The position numbers were made by a program, and so were the translations under genes. 64,000 nt of DNA from Candidatus Saccharimonadia bacterium (lineage in GTDB: Bacteria > Patescibacteriota > Saccharimonadia > CAILAD01 > CAZGYV01). The stretch is from assembly GCA_041906885.1 (NCBI GenBank), contig JAYRII010000014.1, positions 10,059-74,058 on the forward strand, written 5' to 3'. The notes under the pieces are model-generated. The model was not told the origin of the DNA. It made no database searches and saw nothing but the letters and a program-made list of their open reading frames with translations. Shown here piece after piece: positions 43,567-60,394 of the stretch. The number at the start of each line of letters is the position of its first letter. Positions within the stretch are counted from its first letter, which is position 1.

Positions 43567-43575
43567 TAAGCCCTA

Positions 43576-45102: not shown

Positions 45103-45381
45103 TTAGAAGCGGCTGATGACAAAATTAATAATCGAGTACGACATGATGGCAACAATAATACCGACTACAGCGTAGAGGACTGTGTCCTTAGCAGCACTGA
45201 CTGACTTTTCGTTGCCGCCAGAGAAGACGTAGCGGAAGCCGCCGATGATTAGCATGATGACAGCCGAGATACCGATCGCTAGCAAGAGAGTATTTGTGAC
45301 GATCTTAATCTGGGCCGGCAGACTGCCATTCAGGCCAGCTCCTTGACCTACCCAGTTTACCCCTGTTTCAATACTATTCAT
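45103..45381 (-). CDS. VirB2/TrbC-like pilin paralog 1 (appears to lack a signal peptide)
   Basis: LPAQIKIVTNTLLLAIGISAVIMLIIGGFRYVFSGGNEKSVSAAKDTVLYAVVGIIVAIMSYSIINFVISRF: two hydrophobic helices separated by a short loop, conserved C-terminus shared with paralogs 2-4. Confidence 0.55.
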   Translation of the reverse strand: MNSIETGVNWVGQGAGLNGSLPAQIKIVTNTLLLAIGISAVIMLIIGGFRYVFSGGNEKSVSAAKDTVLYAVVGIIVAIMSYSIINFVISRF

Positions 45382-45438
45382 GCCAATATTCTAACATGTC
45401 TAGAGATGTTAGCCGTTAAATACCTAACTAATTAAATC

Positions 45439-45804
45439 TTAGAAACGACCAATGACAAAGTGAACAATGGCATAAGACAATATGGCCACCACCAAACCGA
45501 TGACGGCATAGAGAATGGTGTCTCGAGCTGCACTAATGTTCTTTTCGTTACCTTGAGAGAGGGCAAAGCGAAAGCCGGCAATAATAATTGCAATAATAGC
45601 CACTACGCCGATCATGATCAAGATAGTATTTACGATGTTGGTAATAGACGGCCCGAGCTCAGTCGGAGTGCCAGCTGACTTGGCACAATTCGCGCCACCA
45701 GATGCACCATCAGAAACACTATCGCAAGCCGCTAAAGCTCGCTGGCTTAAGCCAAAAAGGGCAGCACCGGCAAAGGCAGCCAGAGTATTGAGGTGCTTTT
45801 TCAT
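45439..45804 (-). CDS. VirB2/TrbC-like pilin paralog 2
   Basis: Signal peptide MKKHLNTLAAFAGAALFGLSQRALA, variable Cys-containing segment, then the conserved pilin core ...IAGFRFALSQGNEKNISAARDTILYAVIGLVVAILSYAIVHFVIGRF. Confidence 0.6.
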   Translation of the reverse strand: MKKHLNTLAAFAGAALFGLSQRALAACDSVSDGASGGANCAKSAGTPTELGPSITNIVNTILIMIGVVAIIAIIIAGFRFALSQGNEKNISAARDTILYAVIGLVVAILSYAIVHFVIGRF

Positions 45805-45825
45805 GAAAGCCTTAACTTCCTTAGC

Positions 45826-46182
45826 CTAGAATCGGCCGATTACAAAGTTGACAATAGCATAAGACATGATTGCCACCACGATACCGATGACGGCGTAGAG
45901 AATGGTGTCCTTAGCTCCACTAATGGCTTTTTCATTACCTTGCGAGAAGACATAGCGGAAGCCACCGACAATCAGCATTAGTACCGCAGCCACACCAATG
46001 ACTAGTAAAAGAGTGTTGGTTATAGCCGTAATCTGAGATGGCAGGTCGCCATTTAGTCCGGCACTCTGGCCGGCATAGCCGGCACCTTGCTCTATTTCAC
46101 TGTTGGCGGCCAAAGCTCGCCCAGCTAACATCGGCAGCGTCACACCCGCCGACAAGCTTACTTTTTTTATTAATGAAACCAT
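45826..46182 (-). CDS. VirB2/TrbC-like pilin paralog 3
   Basis: Signal peptide plus core LPSQITAITNTLLLVIGVAAVLMLIVGGFRYVFSQGNEKAISGAKDTILYAVIGIVVAIMSYAIVNFVIGRF. Confidence 0.6.
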   Translation of the reverse strand: MVSLIKKVSLSAGVTLPMLAGRALAANSEIEQGAGYAGQSAGLNGDLPSQITAITNTLLLVIGVAAVLMLIVGGFRYVFSQGNEKAISGAKDTILYAVIGIVVAIMSYAIVNFVIGRF

Positions 46183-46296
46183 TTCTTTGTCTCCTTCTTG
46201 TAGGATTTTTTAGATTAATAATAAAAACTTGGCTTTATTGTAAACGAAATTCTCAACCATGACAATTACTATTTTGCTTATGTTCTGGTTTGGACA

Positions 46297-46468
46297 TTGT
46301 ACATCCTGAGTTCTCTCGTGTCATCTTGAGCCCACCTATTGTCATCCTGAGCGCAGCCGAAAGATCTCAGACGAAGAATGACTGTAGATTCTTCCTCTCC
46401 AGTCAAGATTCAAAATTACAACCCACTCCGTCGTCCTGATCCGACAGCCGACGGACGATTCAGAATCT
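46297..46468. repeat. MITE-like palindromic repeat, copy E (tandem degenerate copies between pilin genes)
   Basis: tgtacatcctgag..gtcatcttgagc..ttgtcatcctgagcgcagccgaaagatctcagacgaagaatgactgtagattcttcc...cgtcgtcctgatccgacagccgacggacgattcagaatctg. Confidence 0.55.
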
Positions 46469-46492
46469 GTTCCTGCCCGCCAGCACCAAACT

Positions 46493-46795
46493 CTACTTGA
46501 TGTGTGTCAGCACGAAGTTGACAATGGCATAGGCTAGGATCGCCACCACTAGGCCGATGACAGCATACATGATGGTGTCTTTGGCGGTCTTGGTCCTGCC
46601 CGGATCGCCAGCTGAGGTGATATACTGCAGACCGCCGACGATCAATGCAATGACCGAGGCAACACCAACTATCCAGAAAAGAATGTTGGTGATCGAGTTG
46701 ATGATCGAGCCGACAGTGGAGGGTGTGCCGCTTAGCGCCGGTACGCCAATATCACCTTCACTGACGGCTAGAAATATTTTTGTAACTATATACAT
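46493..46795 (-). CDS. VirB2/TrbC-like pilin paralog 4 (divergent)
   Basis: ITNILFWIVGVASVIALIVGGLQYITSAGDPGRTKTAKDTIMYAVIGLVVAILAYAIVNFVL. Confidence 0.55.
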   Translation of the reverse strand: MYIVTKIFLAVSEGDIGVPALSGTPSTVGSIINSITNILFWIVGVASVIALIVGGLQYITSAGDPGRTKTAKDTIMYAVIGLVVAILAYAIVNFVLTHIK

Positions 46796-46802
46796 AATAG
46801 CC

Positions 46803-47708
46803 TTATTTTAAATTACCAATGATAAATTTGACAATTGCAATGGCCGATATGGAAATAATCAGCCCTAGTACGGCGTAGCTGATTGTGGCTTTAGCCTTCT
46901 GCAAATTAGTCTGATTGCCGCCCGAGGCGACGTAGCGCAACGCACCGACGATGATAAATACGACCGAGAGTGCGCCTCCAAGATATAAAACAAAGTTAGT
47001 TATGTTGAGGATTAAGCCTTGTATGCTATTTAATGTTTTTCCTGAATCAGGTACTGTAGCCCCAAAGAATTCATCCGGCTTGCCTCCTATACTAATCAAC
47101 ACCAACAATGCCCGCATACTTATCAAGACTACCAAGCTCATGACGGCATTAGTGATCCTGCCCTTGGCTGCCTTGACCGCATCCGGACTGCCCGCCGAGG
47201 TCACCATTTGCACTCCTCCAACTATTATCATCAGCACAATCACTGCGCCCGCCAAACCAACAATCCAGTTGGAAATGCCGACCACATAGCCCATCACTAC
47301 GTTGCTCTGGCTAGGGTCACAGAGCTTTTCAAAGCCATACCCACCTACACCGATCGATTTTTGACTATTATCACTAGGGTCTCGTTCGCCTGGGTCTACT
47401 CCTCCTTGACTAAAACTACCGCAGGTTATATTGTCTCTAGTACCAGCGCCCCCCTCTGTACCACCTTGCCCATTAGTGGAGGTGGGAACTACCCCATTTT
47501 CAAGAAGAGCTTTTTTTCTATCTTTAATGCAGTCATCTCTGTTTACACCCGAGGGAAATCCGTTACAAGCAGCCTCTGCTTGACTCTGGGCCTCTTGGTC
47601 AGATATTGCCAAGGCTCGCTGGGGTGTATAGATTGCTCCCATAACACCGAAGACAAGCACTATCCAAGCAAACACCACCAGGCCAACAATAAGGAGTAAT
47701 TTCTTCAT
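46803..47708 (-). CDS. secreted protein with Cys-containing ectodomain fused to two tandem VirB2-like pilin modules
   Basis: Signal/anchor MKKLLLIVGLVVFAWIVLVFG, four Cys, then module 1 (ISNWIVGLAGAVIVLMIIVGGVQMVTSAGSPDAVKAAKGRITNAVMSLVVLIS) and module 2 (ITNFVLYLGGALSVVFIIVGALRYVASGGNQTNLQKAKATISYAVLGLIISISAIAIVKFIIG). Confidence 0.5.
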   Translation of the reverse strand: MKKLLLIVGLVVFAWIVLVFGVMGAIYTPQRALAISDQEAQSQAEAACNGFPSGVNRDDCIKDRKKALLENGVVPTSTNGQGGTEGGAGTRDNITCGSFSQGGVDPGERDPSDNSQKSIGVGGYGFEKLCDPSQSNVVMGYVVGISNWIVGLAGAVIVLMIIVGGVQMVTSAGSPDAVKAAKGRITNAVMSLVVLISMRALLVLISIGGKPDEFFGATVPDSGKTLNSIQGLILNITNFVLYLGGALSVVFIIVGALRYVASGGNQTNLQKAKATISYAVLGLIISISAIAIVKFIIGNLK

Positions 47709-47891
47709 AATTTCATGATTAATTATCCGTCAGGTCATAGTAAAAGTAAAGCTTACGTTTTATGTGATTATAATGGTTAAATGAATAAAAAATTACACAA
47801 CACGCACTGCAATGAAGTTATTTCAAACAGTCCTTTCGCTATAAATAATCTTGCAATCTATTGCTATACATAAGCAAGTTTGGTGCTATAA

Positions 47892-50399
47892 TTGAGTAAA
47901 ATGCTACTCAAAATCCTGAAACAAAAATTTTTAATTTCATTTCTCGTGCTATTAAGCCTCGTAGCCTGTAGTTTTATTTTTGCCCCAAAAGCTCTGGCTG
48001 CCAATCGACCAAGTGCATATAAGGCAGATGAACATGTTCGCTGTGCATGGATCAATGCTTGGTTTATACAATGTAGTGGCATTAATTACTTGTATGATGT
48101 TCAGGCTTCGAAAGAGTCAAATACAGATACATTTAGGCCTCAATCCGGTGATATAGCACGACATGGTTACGTACACATTACTCAATATCATGCAGAAGGC
48201 AAAGACGATTTTGTCATCAATACCGACAGGACAAGCCTTGTAGCACCCGGTAACCTCGATCCTAAAAATTTTGATTTCACAGGTAGCGATAAACGCAATA
48301 CTAACAACAAGGGTAATATTGACAGCGCGCAAGGTCCAATCTCATCAGAGGCTAAGAGCGGCAAAGATGAGGAAAGAAACAAGCTGTGTAGCATAATAAA
48401 CACAGCTGAAGGCTGTCTAAATGCATGGGATGGTCAACCCAACAATGGGTTAGATGGCTTTGTTTCTCTTTATGGACAAAGTCAATCCGCACTGGATGCA
48501 GAAAGAGACTGTGGGGATAATTCATCTCTTAATTTCATCACCTGCCCGATATTCAATATGGTCAATAAAACGATTGGCAAATTAATCGGTAGTGATGGTA
48601 GTGGCAAAGGCTTGCTAATAGATATGTTTTACGTCAGACCGCTTTCGTTTCAAAGAACAACAGACGCTAATGGTCAAGACTCCAACCCACTCTACTCTGT
48701 TTGGGATAATGTAAAGAATATAGCCCTGAGCGTATACGTCTTTATTTTCTTGATTGTTATATTTTCTAACTCTATGTCGCTTGGCATTGATGCCTACACC
48801 ATAAAGAAGACCTTACCTAGGCTTTTTGCAGCCGCGATTTTTACCCAATTCTCATTTTTATTTCTAAATATCGCTATAGATATGAGTAATGTTATTGGCA
48901 TTGGCTTGCCTAGTTTTGTGTTGGCTCAAGGCCCTAAAACATTCACCCTCAATATCTCTGGTATATGGGGAGGGGCAGCGAGTGTTGTATCGTTTTTACT
49001 AATTCTGATCCTTGCCATAATGGCTCTCTTTAGCCTGATAGTAGCTCTAATTACGATTGTCGCCAGACAGCTAATAGTTTTTGCGCTTGTTATTACGGCA
49101 CCGATTGCAATTGCCTGCTGGGTACTTCCAAATACTCAAAAGATTTTTAAAAAATGGTGGAATAATCTGTGGAGAATCTTAGCAATGTTCCCAATCGCGA
49201 CCGGCTTGATTGCGGTTGCTATTTTGTTCTCCCGAGTTACAGGCCACCAAACAGATGTCAATGGAAATCACATAAGCTCTTTGGCGCAGCTCGCTGGTGC
49301 TATGGCTCCCCTTATCGCCCTAGCTATCCTACCTAAAACTTTCAAATGGGGAGGAGATTTTGTCGCCGCAGCTACTGGTGCTGCAGCCGGCTGGGTTGCT
49401 CGTGGACAATCTGCCTCGTTTAAGAAGGGTAAGGACGTGGGCAAGGCTGGATTGGGTGGTGCTAGAGATAGAGTTGCCTTAAATGCTGGCAATAGCAGAT
49501 TCCTTCATGGTATATCGGGAGGAGGATGGAGGAATAGCTCTCGTAAGAATATGATCAGAAGAGGCCAAAACAAGGGACGTATACTTGGTGAGTACGAAAA
49601 AGCTGCCCAGTATGCTGAAAAAGACCAACTTCGTCAATTAGCTGGCAGTAAAAATAAAGGCATGCAGATGGCTGCGATTGGGCGCATGGCCAAGAAATCA
49701 GACTTAGAAGGACTTACCAGCGTTTTAGCGAGCGGCCAGGTTACTCGAGGGACATATAAGGCAGCAGTCGAACAATACCATGGTGATTTCGACAAGATGC
49801 CTCAGATGCGCTCAGTGGCTTTTGCAGATGAAAAAAGCAGCTCAAGTAGAGCAATCATGACTTCAGTACCCGATGGAAAAGGTGGCACTACTCAAAGACC
49901 AGCCATACAGACGAGCTTCTACGCTGGTATGTCTGGTGAGTCTCTTGCGGGTGCATCGACTGACTCTAAAAAACATATTATGGGTGCTGGGGAAGTATCA
50001 GGTTCAGCAGTAAATCAAATCTTGAGTACACCTGCCCTGGAAGCCAAGTTTAGCTCCGAAGATATAGCAACCTTAAGAGGTCTTGCTGGTGCGACTGGTA
50101 CGACACCATCTGGAACCGCCGGAGGGATGCCAGCACCAGCACCTGGCAGCAGTACACCACCAATCGTGGTTGCACCCACTCCAGCATCAGCTCCCCATGC
50201 ATCAACTTCAAGTACTGGCAGCTCTGAGGTTGTTGCCGAACTAAAACGAATTGGTAGTAAATTAGACGATATTGGCAGCACTCCGCCACCTACTCCTCCT
50301 TCATCACCAGAGCCTCACCGCCATGACCCTTCAAGCGGCACTGACTCCTCTCACCTACCTGGCTCAGATAGCCCGCCACCACCATGGCTCAGAGAATAG
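47892..50399 (+). CDS. VirB6/TrbL-like polytopic T4SS channel protein with large Cys-containing N-terminal ectodomain and Pro/Ser-rich C-terminal tail
   Basis: Signal peptide, ~250-aa ectodomain with multiple Cys, then 5-6 TM helices (ALSVYVFIFLIVIFS; LFAAAIFTQFSFLFLNIAI; SVVSFLLILILAIMALFSLIVALITIV; LIVFALVITAPIAIACWVL; ILAMFPIATGLIAVAILF). Position next to VirB3/VirB4 homologues. Confidence 0.5.
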   Translation: MSKMLLKILKQKFLISFLVLLSLVACSFIFAPKALAANRPSAYKADEHVRCAWINAWFIQCSGINYLYDVQASKESNTDTFRPQSGDIARHGYVHITQYHAEGKDDFVINTDRTSLVAPGNLDPKNFDFTGSDKRNTNNKGNIDSAQGPISSEAKSGKDEERNKLCSIINTAEGCLNAWDGQPNNGLDGFVSLYGQSQSALDAERDCGDNSSLNFITCPIFNMVNKTIGKLIGSDGSGKGLLIDMFYVRPLSFQRTTDANGQDSNPLYSVWDNVKNIALSVYVFIFLIVIFSNSMSLGIDAYTIKKTLPRLFAAAIFTQFSFLFLNIAIDMSNVIGIGLPSFVLAQGPKTFTLNISGIWGGAASVVSFLLILILAIMALFSLIVALITIVARQLIVFALVITAPIAIACWVLPNTQKIFKKWWNNLWRILAMFPIATGLIAVAILFSRVTGHQTDVNGNHISSLAQLAGAMAPLIALAILPKTFKWGGDFVAAATGAAAGWVARGQSASFKKGKDVGKAGLGGARDRVALNAGNSRFLHGISGGGWRNSSRKNMIRRGQNKGRILGEYEKAAQYAEKDQLRQLAGSKNKGMQMAAIGRMAKKSDLEGLTSVLASGQVTRGTYKAAVEQYHGDFDKMPQMRSVAFADEKSSSSRAIMTSVPDGKGGTTQRPAIQTSFYAGMSGESLAGASTDSKKHIMGAGEVSGSAVNQILSTPALEAKFSSEDIATLRGLAGATGTTPSGTAGGMPAPAPGSSTPPIVVAPTPASAPHASTSSTGSSEVVAELKRIGSKLDDIGSTPPPTPPSSPEPHRHDPSSGTDSSHLPGSDSPPPPWLRE

Positions 50400-50417
50400 T
50401 GCACGCGAGAATATCAT

Positions 50418-51281
50418 ATGGGTCAATATAAAGTTCCACAAAATGTAGAGACAGAAGACAAAATCCTTGGTCCGTTTTCGATCAAGCAATTTGTCTATCT
50501 TGTGATCGCCCTGATGTGGGGCTTCCTCATGTGGCGCATCTTTGGCTTTTTCTTGCCGATCGCCATTCTGCTAATTCTGCCCGTCAGCGGCATCTTTATC
50601 GCTCTGGCAGTCGGCAAGCGCGAGGAGCAGAGCTTCGAAAATTACTTTATCGCTTTTGTCCGGTTTATGGTCTTGCCGCGCAAACGAATTTGGCAAAAAG
50701 ACGACACCAAGGATATTGTCAAAATTATCCCCAAGGCTCCACCCAAGCCCGAGGAGGCCAAGCCGCCCAATCCCGAAGAAGTCCGCGGGCAATTGCACAA
50801 GCTAGCTACGATCATTGATTCGCGCGGCCGTTTGCAAAAAAACGAAATGGTCCAAGTCCAAGATGTCGGCTACCAAAACGCTGAGCTGGCCAGCCGGGTG
50901 ATTGATCCTATGGCCGAGTCGCACGAAGTGATTAACCCGCAAGCTATCGCCATGAAAGACGATATGCTCGATACCCAAAACAGTGACAAAGCTGCTGCCG
51001 TCGGGCAGATGCTTGAAAATGTCGAGCACGACGTCCGCGCTCAAGCCGTCGAAAATATGAAAAAAGCCCAGTCTGCGCCGGCCAAGCCAAGCCATCATCA
51101 GGCAACACCACAAGAGCACCAGGCGGCCAAAAGTAAAGCACAAGCAGGATCGCCAAATCCGCAGGCTGCTGGTATAATTGAGTTAGCGATGCGCAAAGAG
51201 CCAGTTACGGTTGCCCAAATCGCAAATCGCGTCTCAAATGAAGTTACACTTTCGCCGGGCAAAACCGTCAAGTTGCGCTAG
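50418..51281 (+). CDS. PrgI/VirB3-like small membrane protein with extended C-terminal domain
   Basis: N-terminal KILGPFSIKQFVYLVIALMWGFLMWRIFGFFLPIAILLILPVSGIFIALAVGK (two TM hairpin) as in PrgI/VirB3, located immediately before the VirB4 homologue. Confidence 0.45.
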   Translation: MGQYKVPQNVETEDKILGPFSIKQFVYLVIALMWGFLMWRIFGFFLPIAILLILPVSGIFIALAVGKREEQSFENYFIAFVRFMVLPRKRIWQKDDTKDIVKIIPKAPPKPEEAKPPNPEEVRGQLHKLATIIDSRGRLQKNEMVQVQDVGYQNAELASRVIDPMAESHEVINPQAIAMKDDMLDTQNSDKAAAVGQMLENVEHDVRAQAVENMKKAQSAPAKPSHHQATPQEHQAAKSKAQAGSPNPQAAGIIELAMRKEPVTVAQIANRVSNEVTLSPGKTVKLR

Positions 51282-54336: not shown

Positions 54337-57300
54337 ATGCCTCCTTCTGATGAAATGGAACAATATGACAACCCGATAGGTGACGCTGACGCCGGCTATG
54401 ACGCCGGACTGTCCGGTGATACCGGCTCAGAAAACGATGCGCCTGAAGTAAGTCCGTCGCGGAGCTCAAGCGGTCCCAAGCATGCAAAAAGCAAACAAGA
54501 CAATAAAGGCCTCAATAAAACCCAAAAAAGGCTCTCCGGTATCGAGAATAAGTTGGGGCAAAAAGGAGGCCTTGCAGGTAACCTCGGTAAGGCCGCCGGG
54601 GACCTCAATAAGTTTATTGACGGAAACAAGCCAAAACACCTCAAACAAGATGGCAGTAAAGCAGCTAGAAAAACGACCGAGAAAGCAGTCGATAAAGCAG
54701 CCGGGCAAGCCGCTAAAGCAGCGGTTGCTTCGTCTGGAATAGGAGCCCCTGTTGCCCAAGCAGTAGGCAAGGTCGTCGAAAAAGTCGGCGTCAAACGAAT
54801 TCTAATTATTATCGGGGTTCTTCTCTTGTGGCCTATTCTTTCGGTTATGCTAACCGTCATGATGTTGTATCAATTTATCAAAAACCCGATTAAGGCCATT
54901 TGGGACGGCAACCCAGTTGTATCAGCAGTTAAGTCCCTTGTACTCGAAGATCATGGTGAATCTAAAAAATTTGCCTACGAAATTGACCTCAAAGACTTTA
55001 AAGATTTTCCAGCCACCGGTGCTGTTGCCGCCCCGGCCGCTGATGCTCCAAAGGAAGGAACGCTGGAGTGGAAATATAGCCAGATTGATTGGGAAAAGGC
55101 CAAATACCAAACAATCGACCAGCCAAGCAACTGCAGAGTCGACACTAAACAGGTTGTTAATCCAATCACCGGCAAGCAGCGAGCCGTCATCGACAAGGTC
55201 TATATGGCCAACAACGCCGATAACTCCATGAGTGAAAACTCAAAAGCGATGTGCTTATCTAAGGTCTATCCAATCTTTAATACTATGATGCGCAGCAAAT
55301 TCTTGCGACAGGGAATCAATAAGGAAATTGGCCTGCGCTACAACTATGCCGAGCAGGATGAAAATGGTAATGCGCCGGATATATACGCCAGCCCATCGCC
55401 TTCAGCTAGCCCAGCTTCCGCACCGACAACTCAATCCAAGTGGGGCGTCGGCCTAGCCTACCTCAAGCAAATGTTCGTCGATGATTTTATTCGTGGCCTA
55501 AAACAAAACATTACTGCCGTCGCTGTTCCAGCCACCAGTCCAGCAGCAACGACCGACCCCTACGAACAGCTCAAAGAAAAATTACGCAACAAAACCCTTG
55601 ACCGTATCTGGATGCGTGACACTGGTCAAGCCAATCAGCCGTCCGGTGATGTCTCACTTGATGGTGTTAGTGTGCCCCCTGGATTAGCTAATTTTCCTGA
55701 AGGTGCCGCCTTATTTAAAAAAATATTTGCCTGGGTAAGTGCTAAAACCGGTGTGCCAACTGCCATGCTAGCCTCACAAGCCTACCAGGAGTCATCAAAC
55801 TATTGGGTAGGGCAATATCAAGACGATAATTATGTCTTACAGCACTCTTATATGATCCCAGGCGCTGGTAAACAACCCATGGATAAGGCAAAGGGTGATA
55901 CTGGCTGTACAGCAGGCTGCCAAGGGCCGATGCAGCTTGATAAATATCCTGGTGGAGGAAATTATAACGCCAAGCTGCTGGCCGCCTTCAAACAGACCTT
56001 TGGGGTAGACTATCCGGAGCATGGCGAGATGATGTTTGACACGGCAGTCGGTTATGCCGCCACCATGGCTCAATCAAGAGCTAAAACCCTGAACGATCCA
56101 GCAGCCACCAATGCCTACTACCAGGATAAGGGTCATCGACTTGATTACCTCAAATGGTATGGTACTAACGCAGGCGGTGACAAGCATTATGATGAATTTA
56201 ATAGTGGATCAACCAGCATGAAAGACACAATTCAAAATAATAGAACTGTTGCAGCCAACTTTGCCGTTCGTACGCCGTCTACACTACCACCATCGGCTAT
56301 TCTAGCTTTAGCAACACGGATTCCTGGGGCAACCCCACCTGGAGCTGGTGCTGCTCAAGAAGTTATCGATAGGACTACCTATGCAGGTCTAAAGACTGGC
56401 TACGATTTCGCTAAGGCAGTATATGCTAAGCTTGACTTTAATTGGTGTCAGGGGGTAGCTACCAACACCTGCTCAAAAGGCATGATGAACTACTACTTTG
56501 CCAGCAAAGCTGTGATTGACCGTTACGAGTCAAAATACGCCGATAAATTTCCTGGAGGTTCTTCCACAAAGGCACAATATTACAATGCTATGAGCGCTTG
56601 GCAAAAAACCTCTTCAGTCGAACCGGGTGGTAGTTTTACTGCTTGTGGCGATAATTGCACTACACTGCCAGTGCGAAAAGCAGTCGTTGATGCGGCGGGT
56701 GCATATGCTGAAGAGCTACTCAGAATGGAAGCCGCACGACTCGGTATTTCTAGTGGGGGTGGCGGTGGAGGAGGAGGTGACAGCGGAGCATCAACTCCGA
56801 CAACTCCCGAGAAGCCCAAAGACCCGCTCACGAAGATGGTCGCCCTACCCAAGACTTGCGATAAAGACTTTGCAAATAAGAACGCCGGCCTCAAGTCGTC
56901 AGCCCCGATAGACTACTCGGTCGTCAAAGTTGTAAATGACTTGCTCTGTGGCGACGACCCACAAAATATCAAGCTCGATGATGATATAGCCAGACAGATA
57001 AGGAAAGTGGGCGAGAATGGCAGCTCAAAAGACATGGCCGATGTGATCTGTCGATACTCGCTATACTTGGTCGAATCAGCCAAAGCAACGCCGCTAGACC
57101 GCCTAAAACTAACTCAAAAAACCCGTATCGCCTCAATGGCCAATGCTGGTTTCTCGCATGTCACCTACGCCGACACCCAGGTATCGCGACCACTACTACT
57201 GGATGAGATGAGAGCTGACTTTTATAAAATGAGCAATTTCGCTGGGGCCGTTACCTATCATCATACAGCCTACGGCACCGAAAATGGCACCGCCCCGCAG

Positions 57301-59094
57301 GCCGAAACCCTCTCCGGTAGCTCTCTGGGTATGGATATGCTTGGCGTGCACCCTGAGTACCCAATCCAAAAAGCAGTCCGGCAGCTAGCCGGCAACTGTA
57401 GTGATTACCTGGGCAACAACAGTGTGGTCGATAAAAATGGCAAGGCAACCGACCCCAAGAAAGACGAGTCTTCAACCAAGATCGGTCAGGTTGGTGCGTT
57501 CTACCCTCAGCTCCGCGATCAGATGCAAGCCCTGCCTTATTATAATTCGAAGGAATTTCGCGATGAAAAAACTGCCTTTGTTAATGGCACTGCCGCTGAG
57601 AATGGCACTGCCAAAATAGGCGATGCAATCAGTAGTGCAACCAAGAGCGCAGTTGATCAAAGCGGGGTAGGCCTCGATGATGTGCTGCTTGGATTCGCCA
57701 AAGCTGGCACTAATGTGAGTGACGCCGGCACCGAAGATGGGCCGCAAAACTTCAATCGTATGCATGACGGAGTGCAAGCCTATATGTACGCCTATAACCT
57801 GGCCATGGGTGGCAACCTAATCTCTCAAGATCGCGCTGTAGCCGAAGACATCAAGATCGAGGAAGGTGTGCGTGATCAAGAAAAGCGTCGCGGCCTGGCC
57901 TACCGCTTGTTTAATACCGAAAATCCGCGCTCGCTCGTCAGCCACCTTGGTGCAGCTTCGATTGCTAGTCCGCTGCAGGCTGCTAAGAACGTTGCTTCTG
58001 TCTTTGGTGATTTATTTAGCCCGCTGCAGAATATCGGCTCAGCTAGTGGCTCTCTGAGTTATTTCCTTACCGGTAACAACAATAGCGCCATGGCCGACAA
58101 CAGCTTTAGCTACAACTATCTGAAACTTGAGCCATCGACGATACCAGATTCAATCATATCCTCAAGCCCGATTGAGAATGGTAAATATATCGAACACCTC
58201 AAAGAAAGTACCGACGGTGATAAGCATGTCAAAATTAATGTTTTCTATGTTCCATACGGCGCAGAAAAGGCCGTTGATCCGAATAAGGGTGATCATACGA
58301 TCAAAGAATGGTTTGGTGTTTGGGATAAATGCTTTACAACTTTCATTCCTGGTGAACTGGCCCTAGACGACGATACCGTCCGCGAATGCCAGCCCATCTT
58401 TGGGGTTAATGCTGATCTTGATACTTCCGAGGGAGGCAAATTAGCCCTAGCCTACAAAACATATCACTACAATAGCCTAGTGGCCGACGCCATGCTCTAC
58501 CTGTCTGACCCCAGCAAGGTCGATGAAAGTCTATTTGCCAGCAGCGACCAGGCCACTGGCCCCGGTGCAGGCAGTGCTAATCCTGGAGGCATCGTCGGCG
58601 ATGTTTATGAAACTTCAGTTGATATCGCTTGTGCTGCAGGTACAAAAGATGTTGGCATTGCCGATGGTTACCACGGCGGTGTGCTTATAAAAATTCGCTT
58701 GTGTGCTATACCGAACTTCCCAAGCGGTAGTAGTGAGAGTCAACCAGGAGACAAATATTATGTAGAAGGGGCCGATGGTAATGCCCTAGTCAATTCACGT
58801 GTTTCGGGGGCGATGCTATCTTTGGTTAATGATGCTGCAAGCTCTGGTAATCCACTCTCAGCAGATAGCTCATTCCGCACTATGGAACACCAGAAGTCCC
58901 TTTATAGTGCGCCTCACTCAGCCCCCGTAGCCACGCCGGGTAACTCCAATCATCAGATGGGTCTGGCCATAGATTTCGCTAATTGCAAAACTCACAGCAC
59001 AGCATGCTTTAAATGGCTGGACGCAAATGCGGCCAAATATGGTTACCAGAATTTCCCCGTTGAGCCTTGGCATTGGTCGCCAAATGGACATTAG
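54337..59094 (+). CDS. giant (1585 aa) T4SS-associated cell-wall hydrolase (PrgK/VirB1-like): cytoplasmic disordered N-terminus, one TM, SLT lytic-transglycosylase domain and C-terminal M15 (VanY-like) peptidase domain
   Basis: TM ILIIIGVLLLWPILSVMLTVMMLY; SLT signature AYQESSNYW...GCQGPMQL; C-terminal SFRTMEHQKSLYS...SNHQMGLAIDF...EPWHWSPNGH (M15 HxxxxxxD and EPWH zinc motifs); Gly10 linker. Confidence 0.6.
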   Translation: MPPSDEMEQYDNPIGDADAGYDAGLSGDTGSENDAPEVSPSRSSSGPKHAKSKQDNKGLNKTQKRLSGIENKLGQKGGLAGNLGKAAGDLNKFIDGNKPKHLKQDGSKAARKTTEKAVDKAAGQAAKAAVASSGIGAPVAQAVGKVVEKVGVKRILIIIGVLLLWPILSVMLTVMMLYQFIKNPIKAIWDGNPVVSAVKSLVLEDHGESKKFAYEIDLKDFKDFPATGAVAAPAADAPKEGTLEWKYSQIDWEKAKYQTIDQPSNCRVDTKQVVNPITGKQRAVIDKVYMANNADNSMSENSKAMCLSKVYPIFNTMMRSKFLRQGINKEIGLRYNYAEQDENGNAPDIYASPSPSASPASAPTTQSKWGVGLAYLKQMFVDDFIRGLKQNITAVAVPATSPAATTDPYEQLKEKLRNKTLDRIWMRDTGQANQPSGDVSLDGVSVPPGLANFPEGAALFKKIFAWVSAKTGVPTAMLASQAYQESSNYWVGQYQDDNYVLQHSYMIPGAGKQPMDKAKGDTGCTAGCQGPMQLDKYPGGGNYNAKLLAAFKQTFGVDYPEHGEMMFDTAVGYAATMAQSRAKTLNDPAATNAYYQDKGHRLDYLKWYGTNAGGDKHYDEFNSGSTSMKDTIQNNRTVAANFAVRTPSTLPPSAILALATRIPGATPPGAGAAQEVIDRTTYAGLKTGYDFAKAVYAKLDFNWCQGVATNTCSKGMMNYYFASKAVIDRYESKYADKFPGGSSTKAQYYNAMSAWQKTSSVEPGGSFTACGDNCTTLPVRKAVVDAAGAYAEELLRMEAARLGISSGGGGGGGGDSGASTPTTPEKPKDPLTKMVALPKTCDKDFANKNAGLKSSAPIDYSVVKVVNDLLCGDDPQNIKLDDDIARQIRKVGENGSSKDMADVICRYSLYLVESAKATPLDRLKLTQKTRIASMANAGFSHVTYADTQVSRPLLLDEMRADFYKMSNFAGAVTYHHTAYGTENGTAPQAETLSGSSLGMDMLGVHPEYPIQKAVRQLAGNCSDYLGNNSVVDKNGKATDPKKDESSTKIGQVGAFYPQLRDQMQALPYYNSKEFRDEKTAFVNGTAAENGTAKIGDAISSATKSAVDQSGVGLDDVLLGFAKAGTNVSDAGTEDGPQNFNRMHDGVQAYMYAYNLAMGGNLISQDRAVAEDIKIEEGVRDQEKRRGLAYRLFNTENPRSLVSHLGAASIASPLQAAKNVASVFGDLFSPLQNIGSASGSLSYFLTGNNNSAMADNSFSYNYLKLEPSTIPDSIISSSPIENGKYIEHLKESTDGDKHVKINVFYVPYGAEKAVDPNKGDHTIKEWFGVWDKCFTTFIPGELALDDDTVRECQPIFGVNADLDTSEGGKLALAYKTYHYNSLVADAMLYLSDPSKVDESLFASSDQATGPGAGSANPGGIVGDVYETSVDIACAAGTKDVGIADGYHGGVLIKIRLCAIPNFPSGSSESQPGDKYYVEGADGNALVNSRVSGAMLSLVNDAASSGNPLSADSSFRTMEHQKSLYSAPHSAPVATPGNSNHQMGLAIDFANCKTHSTACFKWLDANAAKYGYQNFPVEPWHWSPNGH

Positions 59095-60394
59095 TATGAT
59101 CAAGAATATTTCACTTATAAAACATTATCCCAGAAGCGCAAAGACTGCCGGGCGAATACTTGCAATAACTCTGCTAATTTTAAATGCCTTGGGCATACCT
59201 AACGCTTCAGTGGCTGTGGCAGCCGATGCCCAAAAGAAATCCGAGTATAGGCCCGGGGTATCTGAACAGCGACGGGAGATCGAATTTCATTGGGCATACG
59301 ACAAAACAGCAGCCTGTGTGGCTAATGCCGCCAGTAGTCAAGCTAATTCTGGTCTTAGTGGTAATGGGTCCCTTCCTGATAGCGTGCCGGGGCCATACCA
59401 TGACATTTTCATTGCCGCTGCTGCCAAACACAATGCCCCTCCTGCTATCGTAGCTGCAATCTTTTTTGCCGGAGAGCACGGCCATAGTTGGCCAGACCCT
59501 CCACCACCTTACGGAGGCGGTAAGTCGTGGGAGACTTCTTACGCTAATGCTCAGGGCCCATTTCAATTTCTACCAGGTACATGGGGTGAATACGGTGATG
59601 ATGGAAACGGTGATGGCAAAAAGGACATTCAAGACCTGACAGATGCTGCCTTTGGGGCCGCTAATTACTTAGCAGCCAACGGAGCTGTTATTGGAGCCCC
59701 AGACGGGCCCCGTGGCACACCATCGATTGAAAATGCAATTTGGCTTTACAACCACAGCCAAAAGTATCTTGATACTGTTATGCAAGCTTATCACGAGTTT
59801 TCGGGTGCTGGAACCGGCATAAGTACCGTCGGGTCTGCCGTTTCACAAGCTGCCCAACAAGTGGGTGTGTGTTCAAGTGGCTCAGCAGATGGTGATGCGC
59901 AATTTATAGACTACACAGGCAAACTAACCGACCCATCAATCAATTCAACTTTACAGCCAACTGCCATTATCCTGCACTGGTGGGGTTTTAAGGGTGGCAT
60001 TGATAGCTTAGTCAGCGGGCTAAACTCTAGGGGGCTTTCCGTACAAATAGGTGCCACACTAGATGGTAAGTTATATCAGCTAACTCCCCAACTCAACAGC
60101 TATGCTCAACACGCTAAGTGTGTCAATAAATATGCTATTGGTATTGAAATAGAGGGCGAGGGGCCGGCCGATCTTGCTGGCTCACAACCCCAGTTTAACT
60201 CCGTGGTTAGCGCGGTTAAAACCCTAATGCAAAAATTTTCAATACCTGTTGATGGCGTTATACAAAATCCTTCCTCTAGTGGCGTAGTGGGAGTCCATTC
60301 TCACAAAGAAGTTGATGCGCTTTGTCCAACAGGTTCGGGCAAGGATGATGTTGATGATACCTACCTGCAAAGAGTAAAAGATGCTGTAAAATAG
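59084..60394 (+). CDS. secreted cell-wall hydrolase: SLT-like lytic transglycosylase plus amidase_2 (N-acetylmuramoyl-L-alanine amidase/PGRP-like) domain
   Basis: Signal peptide; GPFQFLPGTWGEYG (SLT G-x-M/F-Q motif); C-terminal IILHWWGF...HSHKEVDALCPTG amidase_2-like. The start overlaps the preceding gene stop by 11 nt. Confidence 0.55.
   Translation: MDISMIKNISLIKHYPRSAKTAGRILAITLLILNALGIPNASVAVAADAQKKSEYRPGVSEQRREIEFHWAYDKTAACVANAASSQANSGLSGNGSLPDSVPGPYHDIFIAAAAKHNAPPAIVAAIFFAGEHGHSWPDPPPPYGGGKSWETSYANAQGPFQFLPGTWGEYGDDGNGDGKKDIQDLTDAAFGAANYLAANGAVIGAPDGPRGTPSIENAIWLYNHSQKYLDTVMQAYHEFSGAGTGISTVGSAVSQAAQQVGVCSSGSADGDAQFIDYTGKLTDPSINSTLQPTAIILHWWGFKGGIDSLVSGLNSRGLSVQIGATLDGKLYQLTPQLNSYAQHAKCVNKYAIGIEIEGEGPADLAGSQPQFNSVVSAVKTLMQKFSIPVDGVIQNPSSSGVVGVHSHKEVDALCPTGSGKDDVDDTYLQRVKDAVK

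What the first reader, a model, noticed from the sequence alone, without database searches (positions are those of the whole stretch)
45103..60394. Gram-positive-type type IV secretion-like locus with a tandem array of divergent VirB2 pilin paralogs
The locus contains 6 VirB2/TrbC-like pilin modules. Four are single genes and two are fused behind a Cys-rich ectodomain. The other parts are a VirB6/TrbL-like protein, a PrgI/VirB3-like protein, a VirB4 ATPase and two large peptidoglycan hydrolases. No VirD4 coupling protein, relaxase or VirB11 is present in the window. This is consistent with a host- or cell-contact apparatus rather than a conjugative transfer system. The pilin paralogs are conserved in their two TM helices and C-terminus but highly variable in the exposed N-proximal segment. 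That pattern suggests diversification of a surface filament for partner recognition or antigenic variation. The locus is punctuated by MITE-like repeats.
Basis: partly seen in the sequence, partly recalled or inferred. Interest (0 to 1): 0.7.

Follow-up and report, generated by a model that had tools for sequence, protein, structure and literature searches.

The report
Saccharibacterial chromosomal T4SS with pilin array
This is the origin-proximal type IV secretion locus, with an array of VirB2-like pilins, that all Saccharibacteria carry; it is already published as essential for their life on host bacteria, so this copy is real and biologically important but not new.

Summary
Five minus-strand genes (45103-47708) carry exactly six PF18895 T4SS_pilin modules, one gene holding two. 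No VirD4, VirB11 or relaxase was found in the 64 kb.

The window is a Saccharibacteria chromosome. The order comF-hsp20-(SBP)-pilins-VirB6-PrgI-TrsD-VirB4-hydrolases-dciA-recF-dnaN recurs in related MAGs. It mirrors SEML1_0006-0019 of Southlakia epibionticum, essential by Tn-seq (Wang 2023). VirB2 arrays of 2-11 genes, missing relaxases and dnaN proximity are published (Quinonero-Coronel 2025). It is therefore a new member of a known kind.

- The pilin paralogs form position-conserved orthogroups, which argues against antigenic variation.
- "Cys-rich" means 4 Cys, of which 2 are conserved.
- The "MITE-like" repeats are a roughly 30-nt REP-like core at the left edge, absent from sister genomes.

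Small additions:
- The two VirB6-proximal modules are fused or split in different lineages.
- One pilin is conserved without a leader.
- PF18895 pilins also sit beside the closest non-CPR VirB4s found in the plasmid collection (Embleya, Pontibacillus, Priestia). This contradicts review statements that such pilins are unique to Patescibacteria among monoderms.

The parts
45103..45381 (-). pil1, a 92-aa VirB2-like pilin module without a signal peptide. It is a recent paralogue of pil3.
   Evidence: PF18895 scores 31.5 bits. Only 3 codons lie between the start codon and the upstream stop. The leaderless 92-aa form is conserved in L001 and L002. It is 70% identical to pil3.
45439..45804 (-). pil2, a 121-aa pilin with a signal peptide (...RALA/A) and a conserved Cys pair in the N-proximal segment.
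   Evidence: PF18895 scores 34.6 bits. NCBIfam NF045849 scores 40.0 bits, exactly at its cut-off.
45826..46182 (-). pil3, a 118-aa pilin with a signal peptide.
   Evidence: PF18895 scores 37.3 bits. Orthologues in L001 and L002 are 76-79% identical.
46183..46492 (.). Intergenic gap that splits the array into pil56-pil4 and pil3-pil2-pil1. It holds one REP-like repeat (46320-46366) and minus-strand promoter-like sites.
   Evidence: The promoter-like sites are consensus matches only.
46493..46795 (-). pil4, a 100-aa pilin without a canonical signal peptide.
   Evidence: PF18895 scores 55.3 bits. NF045849 scores 48.5 bits against a cut-off of 40. Its orthogroup is conserved across genomes.
46803..47708 (-). 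pil5/6, a 301-aa fused double pilin. It has an N-terminal signal or anchor sequence and a variable extension of about 100 aa with 4 Cys (2 conserved). The two VirB2-like modules are at aa 134-206 and aa 213-301.
   Evidence: PF18895 scores 72.3 bits over two stretches. The same two modules are separate adjacent genes in L003, L004 and L009 and are fused in L001, L002, L006, L007, L010, L012 and L019. The AF2 model has low confidence but shows two helix hairpins.
47709..47891 (.). Divergent intergenic region between the pilin operon and the machinery operon, with promoter-like sites on both strands.
   Evidence: consensus matches only.
47892..50399 (+). Extended VirB6/TrbL-like polytopic membrane protein of 835 aa. 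Gene callers start at the ATG at 47901, giving 832 aa. It has an N-terminal ectodomain with two invariant Cys, about 6 TM helices and a disordered Pro/Gly-rich C-terminus.
   Evidence: Precomputed PF19590 TrbL_3. Nine of 20 orthologues give sub-threshold PF04610 TrbL hits. AF2 pLDDT is 75.8. The top Foldseek hits are R388 TrwJ/TrwI (VirB5/VirB6) stalk-complex chains.
50418..51281 (+). PrgI/VirB3-like protein of 287 aa with a long C-terminal extension.
   Evidence: PF12666 scores 52 bits at residues 5-91.
51343..52356 (+). TrsD-like / VirB4 N-terminal-domain-like protein of 337 aa.
   Evidence: It matches NCBIfam VirB4_plasma model positions 90-233 at 1e-5 and TrsD at 0.0018. Thirteen of 17 orthologues hit TrsD, best 1.5e-8. 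It carries a precomputed PF26593 TraC-like hit. It lies immediately upstream of, and abutting, virB4.
52357..54261 (+). VirB4-family ATPase of 634 aa with Walker A (AKSGAGKS) and Walker B (VDEAW) intact. It lacks the N-terminal ~170 residues of full-length CD1110-type VirB4.
   Evidence: (aligned to model positions 174-732 of 752).
54337..59094 (+). Membrane-anchored 1585-aa protein with a C-terminal VanY/M15 DD-peptidase domain. The SNHQMGLAID and EPWHW motifs are present. A central SLT-like motif region is not significant.
   Evidence: PF02557 scores 50.1 bits. PDB DD-carboxypeptidases match. There is a weak TraH_2 hit at 0.005. It is the positional counterpart of SEML1_0007.
59027..60394 (+). 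Secreted lytic transglycosylase plus N-acetylmuramoyl-L-alanine amidase. The real start is probably 59039 (gene callers, 451 aa) or 59096.
   Evidence: SLT_2 scores 38.9 bits and Amidase_2 38.7 bits. PDB Slt/MltB structures match.
60406..61809 (+). Conserved neighbour of 467 aa with an N-terminal TM segment and low GC. Its function is unknown and it may be an accessory to the system.
   Evidence: Homologues sit at the same position in L001 and L002 at 28-33% identity. It has no Pfam, NCBIfam or PDB hit.
61823..63884 (-). Right-hand context of dciA, recF and dnaN, which marks the locus as origin-proximal. The dnaN frame runs on to the end of the window; the coordinate given is the end of the listed ORF.
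   Evidence: DciA PF05258 at 6e-7.
42258..44883 (.). Left-hand context of comF (-), hsp20 (+) and a solute-binding protein gene (-). The SBP gene is flanked by REP-like repeats.

Best explanation
This locus is the core chromosomal, origin-proximal 'Patescibacteria-type' type IV secretion system of a Saccharibacterium. It corresponds gene for gene to SEML1_0006-0019 of Southlakia epibionticum.

Shown:
- A split VirB4 motor, made of a TrsD-like N-domain protein plus the ATPase.
- A PrgI/VirB3 partner.
- An extended VirB6/TrbL-like polytopic protein.
- Two multi-domain peptidoglycan hydrolases (M15 DD-peptidase; lytic transglycosylase plus amidase).
- Six VirB2-like two-helix modules in five genes.
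- No coupling protein, VirB11 or relaxase nearby.

Inferred mechanism:
- VirB4/TrsD docks through PrgI onto a VirB6 platform in the single membrane.
- The hydrolases open the cell wall of the cell itself and/or of the host bacterium.
- The motor extracts the VirB2-like subunits from the membrane and assembles them into a hetero-oligomeric, wall-spanning tube or short pilus. The VirB6-proximal pair (modules 5a and 5b, fused here) acts as a fixed building block. The distal paralogues contribute surface-exposed N-termini.
- The structure serves the epibiotic contact with the host bacterium, for protein export or uptake of host material, and not for plasmid or ICE transfer.
For: Identity and synteny:
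- The closest VirB4 relatives retrieved in the genome collection are all Saccharibacteria/Patescibacteria or unclassified MAGs, at 53-92% identity.
- The order comF-hsp20-SBP-pilins-VirB6-PrgI-TrsD-VirB4-hydrolases-recF-dnaN is conserved in L001-L004, L006, L012 and L018-L020.
- The S. epibionticum gene table has the same order, sizes and annotations in mirror image.

Components.

Non-conjugative nature:
- No relaxase or T4CP Pfam hit among the larger ORFs scanned, and only three P-loop ORFs in the window.
- The literature reports the same absence across Patescibacteria, and essentiality of the cluster and its pilins in S. epibionticum.

Heteromeric-subunit inference:
- Five to eight modules per locus form positional orthogroups.
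- Modules 5a and 5b are alternately fused and split.
- The module cores are 70-88% conserved among orthologues.
Against: - No filament or channel made by this system has ever been visualised, so 'pilus' is inference.
- Tn-seq essentiality of small genes in one operon can reflect polar effects, so non-redundancy of each pilin is not proven.
- The direction and nature of the cargo are unknown.
- Whether a VirD4 or relaxase lies elsewhere in this genome could not be checked. S. epibionticum has a distant, non-essential T4CP homologue.
- The VirB6 assignment rests on a precomputed Pfam hit, sub-threshold TrbL hits and a Foldseek match with E about 0.01. My own Pfam scan of the window protein found nothing at E up to 0.1.
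- No VirB8-like gene is seen in this locus.
Confidence: 0.8

Rival explanations
1. The pilin array is a set of interchangeable variants, used one at a time or mixed. On this view it is diversified for antigenic variation or to recognise different host strains, as proposed for the VirB2 paralogues of Bartonella and Anaplasma and by the first reader.
For: - Between paralogues the N-proximal exposed segment is only 21% identical, against 42-50% for the helices and loop.
- There are lineage-specific expansions at the distal end of the array: the pil1/pil3 duplication here and four clustered paralogues in L019.
- Array size varies from 5 to 8 modules.
- Quinonero-Coronel 2025 raise host-strain adaptation as a possibility.
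Against: - The paralogues form position-conserved orthogroups across genomes.
- N-proximal segments are 56-68% identical among orthologues from three species. That is not faster than comF, recF or the SBP (60-64%) or VirB6 (46-54%).
- No silent cassettes, inversion sites or recombination repeats were found.
- The pilin genes score as essential in S. epibionticum.
- Two modules are covalently fused, which fixes their stoichiometry.
Confidence: 0.15
2. The system is an uptake machine. It would be a domesticated T4SS that imports host DNA, RNA or other macromolecules, analogous to the archaeal Ced/Ted systems or Helicobacter pylori ComB.
For: - The composition is the same minimal set as Ced/Ted: VirB2-like pilin, VirB6-like channel and VirB4-like ATPase, with no relaxase. 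Ced pilins are leaderless, as pil1 is here.
- VirB4 gives a weak CedB hit at 1.2e-9.
- comF is adjacent.
- Reviews propose nucleotide or nutrient acquisition.
- Saccharibacteria lack de novo nucleotide synthesis (literature).
Against: - Nothing in the sequence indicates direction of transport.
- In S. epibionticum the competence machinery is dispensable, and no link between comEC and the T4SS was found.
- The large hydrolases fit export or penetration equally well.
Confidence: 0.3
3. The VirB2-like proteins do not form an extended pilus. They would instead be membrane- or wall-embedded parts of the translocon, VirB3- or VirB6-accessory-like.
For: - The pilins match NCBIfam NF045849, a family from ICEs of wall-less Mycoplasma. 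In that system the small two-TM proteins have been read as VirB3-like.
- Homologues occur singly or in pairs next to VirB6 in Embleya, Pontibacillus and Priestia loci.
- pil1 and pil4 lack cleavable leaders.
- No pilus has been seen.
Against: - PF18895 and sub-threshold PF04956 TrbC/VirB2 hits share the same helix-loop-helix topology.
- A separate PrgI/VirB3 is already present.
- Leaderless VirB2-like pilins do form pili in the Ced system.
Confidence: 0.25
4. The locus is an integrative conjugative element, or a remnant of one, whose relaxase, coupling protein and oriT lie just outside the region.
For: - VirB4 belongs to the conjugative CD1110/MPF-FATA family.
- The closest non-CPR relative found, on an Embleya plasmid, sits beside a T4CP and a relaxase-like gene.
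Against: - The same housekeeping flanks (comF, hsp20, dciA, recF, dnaN) recur in genomes whose VirB4 is 53-92% identical.
- No integrase, relaxase or second P-loop ATPase was found in the 45 kb upstream or in the remaining downstream sequence.
- GC content matches the rest of the window.
Confidence: 0.03
5. The small proteins are Sec-exported toxin or effector subunits secreted by the T4SS, like the pertussis toxin and Ptl arrangement. This was the reading of McLean 2020.
For: - The array of small proteins, some with signal peptides, sits next to the T4SS genes.
- McLean 2020 proposed this for TM7x.
Against: - All six modules are two-TM helical hairpins that pass a pilin HMM.
- Two of them have no signal peptide.
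- Similarity to Ptx S1 was only 11% in the original proposal.
Confidence: 0.03

Closest known systems
T4SS of Southlakia epibionticum ML1, SEML1_0006-0019 (Wang et al. 2023, Cell; PMC10633639), and the corresponding TM7x locus (McLean 2020)
   Same: The gene order is the same in mirror image. It runs dnaN-recF-...-lysozyme/peptidase proteins-giant protein with C-terminal DD-peptidase-VirB4-TrsD-like-PrgI-TrbL/VirB6-six PF18895 pilin modules-hsp20-comF. No relaxase or T4CP lies in the cluster.
   Different: - Here there are five pilin genes with one fused double, where ML1 has six single genes.
- Here there is one VirB6-like gene, where ML1 has two (0011, 0013) separated by a non-essential NTF2/VirB8-like gene (0012).
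- An SBP gene is inserted between hsp20 and the array.
- The second hydrolase is SLT_2 plus Amidase_2, where ML1 has two lysozyme-like domains plus a Cys protease.
- The 467-aa neighbour replaces the two small exported proteins 0004 and 0005.
- Essentiality is not tested for this organism.
Patescibacteria T4SS clade and VirB2 arrays (Quinonero-Coronel et al. 2025, Microb Genom; PMC12102498)
   Same: - VirB4 nested in MPF-FATA.
- TrsD, PrgI, VirB6 and VirB2-like genes near virB4.
- Arrays of 2-11 divergent pilins, abundant in Saccharimonadia.
- No relaxase, and proximity to dnaN/dnaA.
   Different: - That paper reports a maximum identity of 54% within arrays. Here pil1 and pil3 are 70% identical.
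- It does not describe fused pilins or positional orthogroups.
- It suggests the pilins may have been co-opted from diderm systems. The relatives found here in Bacillota and Actinomycetota make an origin within monoderm T4SSs plausible.
MPF-FATA conjugative T4SS of monoderms (pCF10 Prg, pIP501 Tra, CD1110-type, pGO1 Trs)
   Same: The components are shared: VirB4 of the CD1110 family, PrgI/VirB3, TrsD, a VirB6-like protein and a large multi-domain cell-wall hydrolase. Outer-membrane core proteins are lacking.
   Different: - There is no T4CP, relaxase, oriT or adhesin.
- The context is chromosomal housekeeping genes.
- A multi-gene VirB2-like array is present.
- VirB4 is split from its N-domain.
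Pilin-bearing T4SS loci on Embleya and Streptomyces plasmids and on Pontibacillus and Priestia megaplasmids, and the Mycoplasma ICE Mbov_0395 family
   Same: - These are the closest non-CPR VirB4s found in the plasmid collection, at 36-39% identity.
- The order is the same: pilin(s)-VirB6-like-PrgI-(TrsD)-VirB4-hydrolase.
- PF18895 passes its cut-off at 72.4, 47.4 and 26.9 bits.
   Different: - They carry one or two pilin genes, where the Saccharibacteria carry five to eight modules.
- The Embleya locus keeps a T4CP and a relaxase-like gene, so it is conjugative in type.
- The Bacillaceae loci sit beside flagellar genes on megaplasmids.
Archaeal Ced/Ted DNA-import systems (Beltran et al. 2023; PMC9905601)
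   Same: These are domesticated chromosomal T4SS derivatives in single-membrane cells. They have a VirB2-like pilin, a VirB6-like channel and a VirB4-like ATPase, with no relaxase. Ced pilins are unprocessed, as pil1 appears to be.
   Different: - There is no sequence-level relationship beyond a weak CedB hit.
- Ced/Ted have a single major pilin.
- They have no peptidoglycan hydrolases.
- DNA import is demonstrated there and is not demonstrated here.
VirB2 paralogue arrays of Bartonella and Anaplasma T4SS
   Same: Tandem, divergent VirB2-like genes sit beside a T4SS used for a host-associated lifestyle.
   Different: Those are diderm MPF-T systems in which variation is linked to immune evasion. 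Here the paralogues are conserved orthogroups, and two of them are fused.

Membership tests
Patescibacteria-type chromosomal T4SS (Wang 2023; Quinonero-Coronel 2025) | VirB4 ATPase of the MPF-FATA lineage whose nearest relatives are patescibacterial | tested here: met
   NCBIfam conju_CD1110 scores 367 against a cut-off of 325. All 23 related genome loci are Saccharibacteria/Patescibacteria or unclassified MAGs at 53-92% identity. The best non-CPR hits in the plasmid collection are at most 39% identical. No formal phylogeny was made.
Patescibacteria-type chromosomal T4SS (Wang 2023; Quinonero-Coronel 2025) | TrsD-like gene and PrgI/VirB3 gene immediately upstream of virB4 | tested here: met
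   PrgI scores 52 bits. For ORF337, 13 of 17 orthologues hit TrsD and 12 of 17 hit the VirB4 N-terminus. It also carries a precomputed TraC-like hit.
Patescibacteria-type chromosomal T4SS (Wang 2023; Quinonero-Coronel 2025) | VirB6/TrbL-like polytopic membrane protein in the cluster | tested here: met
   There is a precomputed PF19590 TrbL_3 hit. The top Foldseek hits are R388 TrwJ/TrwI (VirB5/VirB6) stalk chains. About 6 TM helices are predicted. My own hmmscan of the window protein was negative, so the support is moderate.
Patescibacteria-type chromosomal T4SS (Wang 2023; Quinonero-Coronel 2025) | Array of divergent PF18895 VirB2-like pilin genes adjacent to the machinery genes | tested here: met
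   Six modules all score above the gathering threshold. Pairwise identity is 24-70%.
Patescibacteria-type chromosomal T4SS (Wang 2023; Quinonero-Coronel 2025) | Cell-wall hydrolases immediately downstream of virB4 | tested here: met
   VanY, SLT_2 and Amidase_2 all pass their cut-offs.
Patescibacteria-type chromosomal T4SS (Wang 2023; Quinonero-Coronel 2025) | No relaxase or coupling protein in the cluster, and a conserved chromosomal position near dnaN/dnaA | tested here: met
   This holds only within the 64-kb window; the rest of the genome was not examined.
Patescibacteria-type chromosomal T4SS (Wang 2023; Quinonero-Coronel 2025) | Required for epibiotic growth on the host bacterium | not testable with these tools
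   This is known only for S. epibionticum ML1 by Tn-seq.
Conjugative element (ICE or plasmid) with MPF-FATA T4SS | Relaxase, type IV coupling protein and oriT associated with the T4SS genes | tested here: not met
   No such Pfam hits were found among the larger ORFs scanned. The only P-loop ORFs are a ClpB-like protein, VirB4 and RecF. oriT was not searched for specifically.
Conjugative element (ICE or plasmid) with MPF-FATA T4SS | Integrase and att boundaries, with variable presence among related genomes | tested here: not met
   The same housekeeping flanks are seen in many species. No flanking direct repeats bound the locus. No integrase was found among the scanned ORFs.
VirB2/TrbC conjugative pilin (PF04956) | Matches the TrbC/VirB2 profile at the curated threshold | tested here: not met
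   The four single pilins score 16.4-24.0 bits against a cut-off of 27.9, and the fused pilin gave no TrbC hit. They instead pass the separate PF18895 T4SS_pilin model.
VirB2/TrbC conjugative pilin (PF04956) | Cleavable leader followed by two hydrophobic helices joined by a short polar loop | tested here: inconclusive
   The two-helix core is present in all six modules. A leader is evident in pil2, pil3 and pil5/6. It is absent in pil1 and atypical in pil4.
VirB2/TrbC conjugative pilin (PF04956) | Polymerises into an extracellular lipid-bound filament | not testable with these tools
   No structure or imaging exists for any patescibacterial T4SS.
MITE | Terminal inverted repeats, target-site duplication and copies similar over their full length | tested here: not met
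   Only a roughly 30-nt core is shared, and the flanks do not align. The repeats behave as short REP-like intergenic motifs.

The most novel reading that the evidence does not exclude
VirB2-like PF18895 pilins may not be a patescibacterial oddity. They could be a native part of an unrecognised subclass of monoderm T4SS with the order pilin-VirB6-PrgI-TrsD-VirB4-hydrolase. That subclass would also include Actinomycetota plasmids, Bacillaceae megaplasmids and Mycoplasma ICEs.

On this reading Saccharibacteria expanded the single pilin into a fixed set of specialised subunits. These include a covalently fused 5a-5b dimer and a leaderless subunit. Together they would assemble an obligately hetero-oligomeric T4SS filament or conduit, unlike the essentially homopolymeric conjugative pili known so far.
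Probability: 0.35. Interest if true: 0.6.

Novelty: new member of a known kind. Interest (0 to 1): 0.27.

Why it matters
The system class matters. It is the first T4SS reported as essential for its bearer's growth, it is conserved throughout Saccharibacteria, and its cargo and direction of transport are unknown. This window adds no new kind of system, because it is one more orthologue.

It does add three modest, testable points:
- The pilin paralogues are stable positional orthogroups. Two of them are repeatedly fused and one is leaderless. This favours a heteromeric structure over antigenic variation.
- This clade manages with one VirB6-like gene and no separate VirB8-like gene.
- PF18895 pilins accompany the nearest VirB4 relatives found on Bacillota and Actinomycetota plasmids. 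This questions the current review statement that VirB2-like subunits are absent from Gram-positive T4SSs apart from Patescibacteria. It also questions the idea that they were co-opted from diderm systems.

Tried and rejected
- **PDB sequence searches with profiles.** The TrsD-like family (A1) and the VirB6-like family (A2) found nothing meaningful. Homology had to come from NCBIfam, Pfam and fold comparison.
- **Local Pfam scan.** It gave no hit for the 835-aa and 337-aa proteins. The collection's precomputed table lists TrbL_3 and TraC-like for the identical proteins. I report both and treat the assignment as moderate.
- **AlphaFold model of the fused pilin.** With only 8 homologues it reached pLDDT 58. 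I used it only for secondary structure, ran no fold search on it, and the fold of the N-terminal extension stays unknown.
- **Segment-wise Pfam scan of the 1585-aa protein.** It gave nothing beyond VanY except a weak TraH_2 hit at 0.005. The central SLT-like motif (QES...GPMQL) is my reading only.
- **The 467-aa neighbour.** It has no Pfam, NCBIfam or PDB relative.
- **tblastn of pil4 against plasmids.** It found nothing. The Embleya pilin found only 3 records, so BLAST is too insensitive for this family.
- **ICE hypothesis.** Rejected on synteny and the lack of mobility genes.
- **Pertussis-toxin-like effector array.** Rejected on pilin HMM hits and topology.
- **MITE label.** Rejected because only a 30-nt core is shared.
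- **Not attempted.** I made no dN/dS estimates, because synonymous sites are likely saturated at 60-80% protein identity.

Full report
**What is in the sequence**

The region 45103-47708 holds five minus-strand ORFs of 92, 121, 118, 100 and 301 aa.
- All five pass the gathering score of Pfam PF18895 T4SS_pilin, at 31.5, 34.6, 37.3, 55.3 and 72.3 bits against 26.6. The 301-aa protein matches twice.
- PF04956 TrbC/VirB2 is hit below threshold by the four single pilins, at 16-24 bits against 27.9.
- A six-frame scan of the whole window, using an HMM built from the modules, finds exactly six modules. All lie in this array and there are no remnants elsewhere.
- The six modules align over a helix-loop-helix core, at 24-70% pairwise identity.

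The divergent plus-strand operon encodes six proteins.
- An 835-aa polytopic membrane protein (47892-50399).
- A PrgI/VirB3-like protein (PF12666, 52 bits).
- A 634-aa VirB4. It passes P-loop_TraG at 97 bits and NCBIfam conju_CD1110 at 367 against 325. It matches PDB 4ag5 at 3.5e-51.
- A 1585-aa protein that ends in a VanY/M15 DD-peptidase domain.
- A protein of about 450 aa with SLT_2 and Amidase_2 domains.

The 337-aa protein is TrsD-like, that is, a free-standing VirB4 N-terminal domain.
- It matches model positions 90-233 of an 894-residue VirB4 model at 1e-5.
- Thirteen of 17 orthologues hit NCBIfam TrsD, best 1.5e-8.
- The identical protein carries a precomputed TraC-like Pfam hit.
- Consistently, the VirB4 aligns only to positions 174-732 of the 752-position CD1110 model. 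The motor is therefore split into two genes.

The 835-aa protein gave no hit in my own Pfam scan. Four lines still point to VirB6.
- The identical protein and most homologues carry precomputed PF19590 TrbL_3.
- Nine of 20 orthologues give sub-threshold TrbL hits.
- About six TM helices are predicted.
- An AlphaFold model of residues 1-580 (pLDDT 75.8) has the R388 TrwJ/TrwI (VirB5/VirB6) stalk-complex chains as its four best PDB matches. Probability is 0.99-1.0, E is about 0.01 and TM-scores are modest.

I regard the VirB6 assignment as moderately well supported.

**Absence of conjugation genes**

Pfam scans of the larger ORFs elsewhere in the window return housekeeping functions or nothing. 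The functions include Dus, LytR, a GT2 glycosyltransferase, a ClpB-like ATPase, PGI, PGM, two FemAB proteins, TsaD, ValRS and DNA alkylation repair. The only ORFs of at least 150 aa with a Walker A motif are the ClpB-like protein, VirB4 and RecF. Within 64 kb I therefore found no VirD4, VirB11 or relaxase. The rest of the genome could not be examined.

**Where it comes from and how conserved it is**

The VirB4 retrieves 23 loci from the genome collection. All are Saccharibacteria/Patescibacteria or unclassified MAGs, at 92% down to 53% identity. The identical protein occurs on many metagenome contigs.

Mapping all window proteins onto these loci shows a conserved order: comF - hsp20 - SBP - pilin array (minus strand) - VirB6-like - PrgI - TrsD-like - VirB4 - giant hydrolase(s) - ... 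- recF - dnaN. The small ORF between the 467-aa gene and recF is DciA. This is a core, origin-proximal chromosomal locus and not an island.

**Comparison with the literature**

The supplementary gene table of Wang et al. 2023 lists the following for Southlakia epibionticum ML1:
- dnaA, dnaN and recF;
- 0004 and 0005;
- 0006 (two lysozyme-like domains plus a Cys protease);
- 0007 (1113 aa, C-terminal DD-peptidase fold);
- 0008 (VirB4);
- 0009;
- 0010 (PrgI);
- 0011;
- 0012 (NTF2-like, non-essential);
- 0013 (TrbL/VirB6);
- 0014-0019 (six PF18895 pilins);
- 0020 (Hsp20) and 0021 (ComF).

That is the same locus in mirror image. The published work already covers the main points.
- The paper reports the cluster and its pilins as essential for epibiotic growth. 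It notes the lack of coupling protein and relaxase.
- Quinonero-Coronel et al. 2025 describe the patescibacterial VirB4 clade within MPF-FATA and the association with TrsD, PrgI and VirB6.
- They count 441 VirB2 arrays of 2-11 genes in 383 assemblies, especially in Saccharimonadia, and note the lack of relaxases and the proximity to dnaA/dnaN.
- A 2025 review and a PNAS perspective repeat this and state that the function is unknown.
- McLean 2020 had already seen the array in TM7x.

The finding is therefore real but already explained in kind.

**What can be added or corrected**

*(a) Nature of the pilin diversity.*
- Between paralogues, the N-proximal mature segment is 21% identical. TM1 is 42%, the loop 43% and TM2 plus the C-terminus 50%.
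- A tree of modules from nine genomes groups them by position in the array and not by genome.
- Each window pilin has a positional orthologue in the two closest species.
- In those orthologues the N-proximal segment is 56-68% identical and the core 70-88%.
- That is no faster than comF, recF or the SBP (60-64%) or VirB6 (46-54%) in the same genome pairs.
- Only the distal end of the array shows lineage-specific duplication: pil1/pil3 at 70% here, and four clustered paralogues in L019.

This is specialisation of old paralogues. It is not a variation cassette.

*(b) The fused pilin.*
- Its two modules are the two VirB6-proximal orthogroups.
- They are fused in the window and in L001, L002, L006, L007, L010, L012 and L019.
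- They are separate adjacent genes in L003, L004 and L009.
- One database homologue appears to hold three modules.
- The N-terminal extension of about 100 aa is the most variable part, at 27% among orthologues.
- It has four Cys, of which two are conserved. "Cys-rich" is an overstatement.
- Its fold could not be predicted with confidence (pLDDT 58).

*(c) Leaders.* pil1 has no room for a leader, because a stop lies three codons upstream of its start. The same 92-aa form is kept in both sister species. pil4 also lacks a canonical signal peptide.

*(d) Gene content.* This clade has one VirB6-like gene and no separate VirB8-like gene. ML1 and loci L005, L006, L007 and L011 have two VirB6-like paralogues.

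*(e) Repeats.*
- GTCATCCTGAG-N6-CGAAGGATC occurs six times against none expected, and the 11-mer core occurs eleven times.
- The copies lie in four intergenic spots: 35.8-36.4 kb, both sides of the SBP gene, and the pil3/pil4 gap.
- They share only a roughly 30-nt core.
- They are absent from the syntenic loci of sister species.

They are a lineage-specific REP-like motif. They are not MITEs by the usual criteria and not part of the secretion system.

**Relatives outside Patescibacteria**

The pilins also match NCBIfam NF045849, the 'Mbov_0395 family pilin-like conjugal transfer protein' of Mycoplasma ICEs. pil4 scores 48.5 bits against a cut-off of 40.

In the plasmid collection the best VirB4 matches are Embleya (39%), Pontibacillus (37%), Streptomyces (37%) and Priestia (36%).
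- **Pontibacillus megaplasmid locus.** It reads two PF18895 pilins (47.4 and 26.9 bits) - 782-aa TrbL-like - PrgI-like - TrsD-like (33% identical to ORF337) - VirB4 - 1050-aa DD-metalloendopeptidase. No T4CP or relaxase is annotated nearby, and flagellar genes lie alongside.
- **Embleya plasmid locus.** An ORF missing from the distributed gene table scores 72.4 bits on PF18895. It sits directly upstream of a TrbL_4-like protein, PrgI, VirB4, a T4CP, a relaxase-like gene and an NlpC/P60 hydrolase.
- **Priestia.** It has a degenerate version with a split VirB4.
- **Second Embleya record and Streptomyces record.** Both show pilin matches about 3.5 kb upstream of their VirB4.

VirB2-like genes of this family therefore do occur in T4SS loci of Gram-positive bacteria. 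This runs against statements in recent reviews and papers. It weakens the suggestion that Patescibacteria co-opted the pilin from diderm systems. I did not build a phylogeny or survey genomes, so this remains a lead.

**Mechanism**

The gene set and its conservation are shown. The mechanism below is inferred from established T4SS architecture (R388, pCF10) and from the literature.
- VirB4 with its TrsD-like N-domain is tethered by PrgI/VirB3 to a VirB6 platform.
- The M15 peptidase, the lytic transglycosylase and the amidase breach peptidoglycan.
- The motor extracts the VirB2-like hairpins from the membrane into a wall-spanning tube or short pilus built from several non-equivalent subunits.
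- The apparatus serves the contact with the host bacterium.

Whether it exports effectors or imports host material is open. An import role would resemble the archaeal Ced/Ted systems, which have the same minimal composition and unprocessed pilins.

Caveats:
- No filament has been seen.
- Tn-seq essentiality of small co-transcribed genes may be polar.
- A distant T4CP cannot be excluded.

**Verdict**

The system is a new member of a well-described kind. Interest is low for novelty, although the class itself remains mechanistically unsolved.

Noticed in passing
L027:7474-17027 (Pontibacillus NZ_CP062975), L028:7577-18420 (Embleya NZ_CP108778), L029:6859-11085 (Priestia NZ_CP045273): T4SS loci on Gram-positive plasmids and megaplasmids carry PF18895 pilin genes directly upstream of VirB6-like, PrgI, (TrsD-like) and VirB4 genes. 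These are the closest non-CPR relatives of the window's VirB4 found in the plasmid collection. The Embleya pilin ORF is missing from the distributed gene table, and that locus also has a T4CP and a relaxase-like gene. This contradicts review statements that VirB2-like subunits are absent from Gram-positive T4SSs apart from Patescibacteria.
   Followed up: partly
window 35796-35868, 36367-36392, 43472-43565, 44928-44974, 46320-46366: A short REP-like intergenic repeat has the core GTCATCCTGAG-N6-CGAAGGATC, with 6 full copies against 0 expected. It clusters near the tRNA-Ser genes, on both sides of the SBP gene and in the pil3/pil4 gap. It is absent from the syntenic loci of sister species. One related copy occurs in L018.
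   Followed up: partly
window 60001-64000: GC drops to 36-39%, against 42-51% in the rest of the window. The stretch covers the 467-aa unknown gene, dciA, recF and dnaN. The cause is unknown.
   Followed up: no
window 60406-61809: A 467-aa protein has an N-terminal TM segment and no detectable family. It is conserved at this position in the two closest genomes at 28-33% identity. It occupies the place of the small exported proteins SEML1_0004 and 0005, which score as essential in S. epibionticum, so it may be an accessory component.
   Followed up: partly
window 43576-44883: A solute-binding protein gene (SBP_bac_1) sits between hsp20 and the pilin array in this clade. In S. epibionticum ML1, hsp20 directly abuts the pilins. 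In the window the SBP gene is bracketed by the REP-like repeats.
   Followed up: no
window 47892-50399 and 51343-52356: The session's own Pfam scan found no family for these two proteins. The protein collection's precomputed table lists PF19590 TrbL_3 and PF26593 TraC-like for the identical sequences. This is a tool or library discrepancy to keep in mind for other TM-rich or newly modelled families.
   Followed up: partly
P0060 (database homologue of the fused pilin); L020:386-1884: One homologue of 327 aa appears to contain three pilin modules in a single polypeptide. L020 encodes two adjacent double-module pilins. Higher-order fusions therefore exist.
   Followed up: no
window 40658-40717: A near-perfect palindrome has 29-nt arms, 86% complementarity and a 2-nt loop. 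It lies about 90 nt downstream of the tRNA-Ser(cga) gene, in an ORF-poor stretch.
   Followed up: no
window 34800-37080: A stretch of about 2.3 kb has no ORF of 90 aa or more. It contains two tRNA-Ser genes (35276, 36174) and three copies of the REP-like repeat.
   Followed up: no
L005, L006, L007, L011: These related Saccharibacteria carry two VirB6-like paralogues upstream of PrgI, as S. epibionticum does. The window and its closest relatives have only one.
   Followed up: partly
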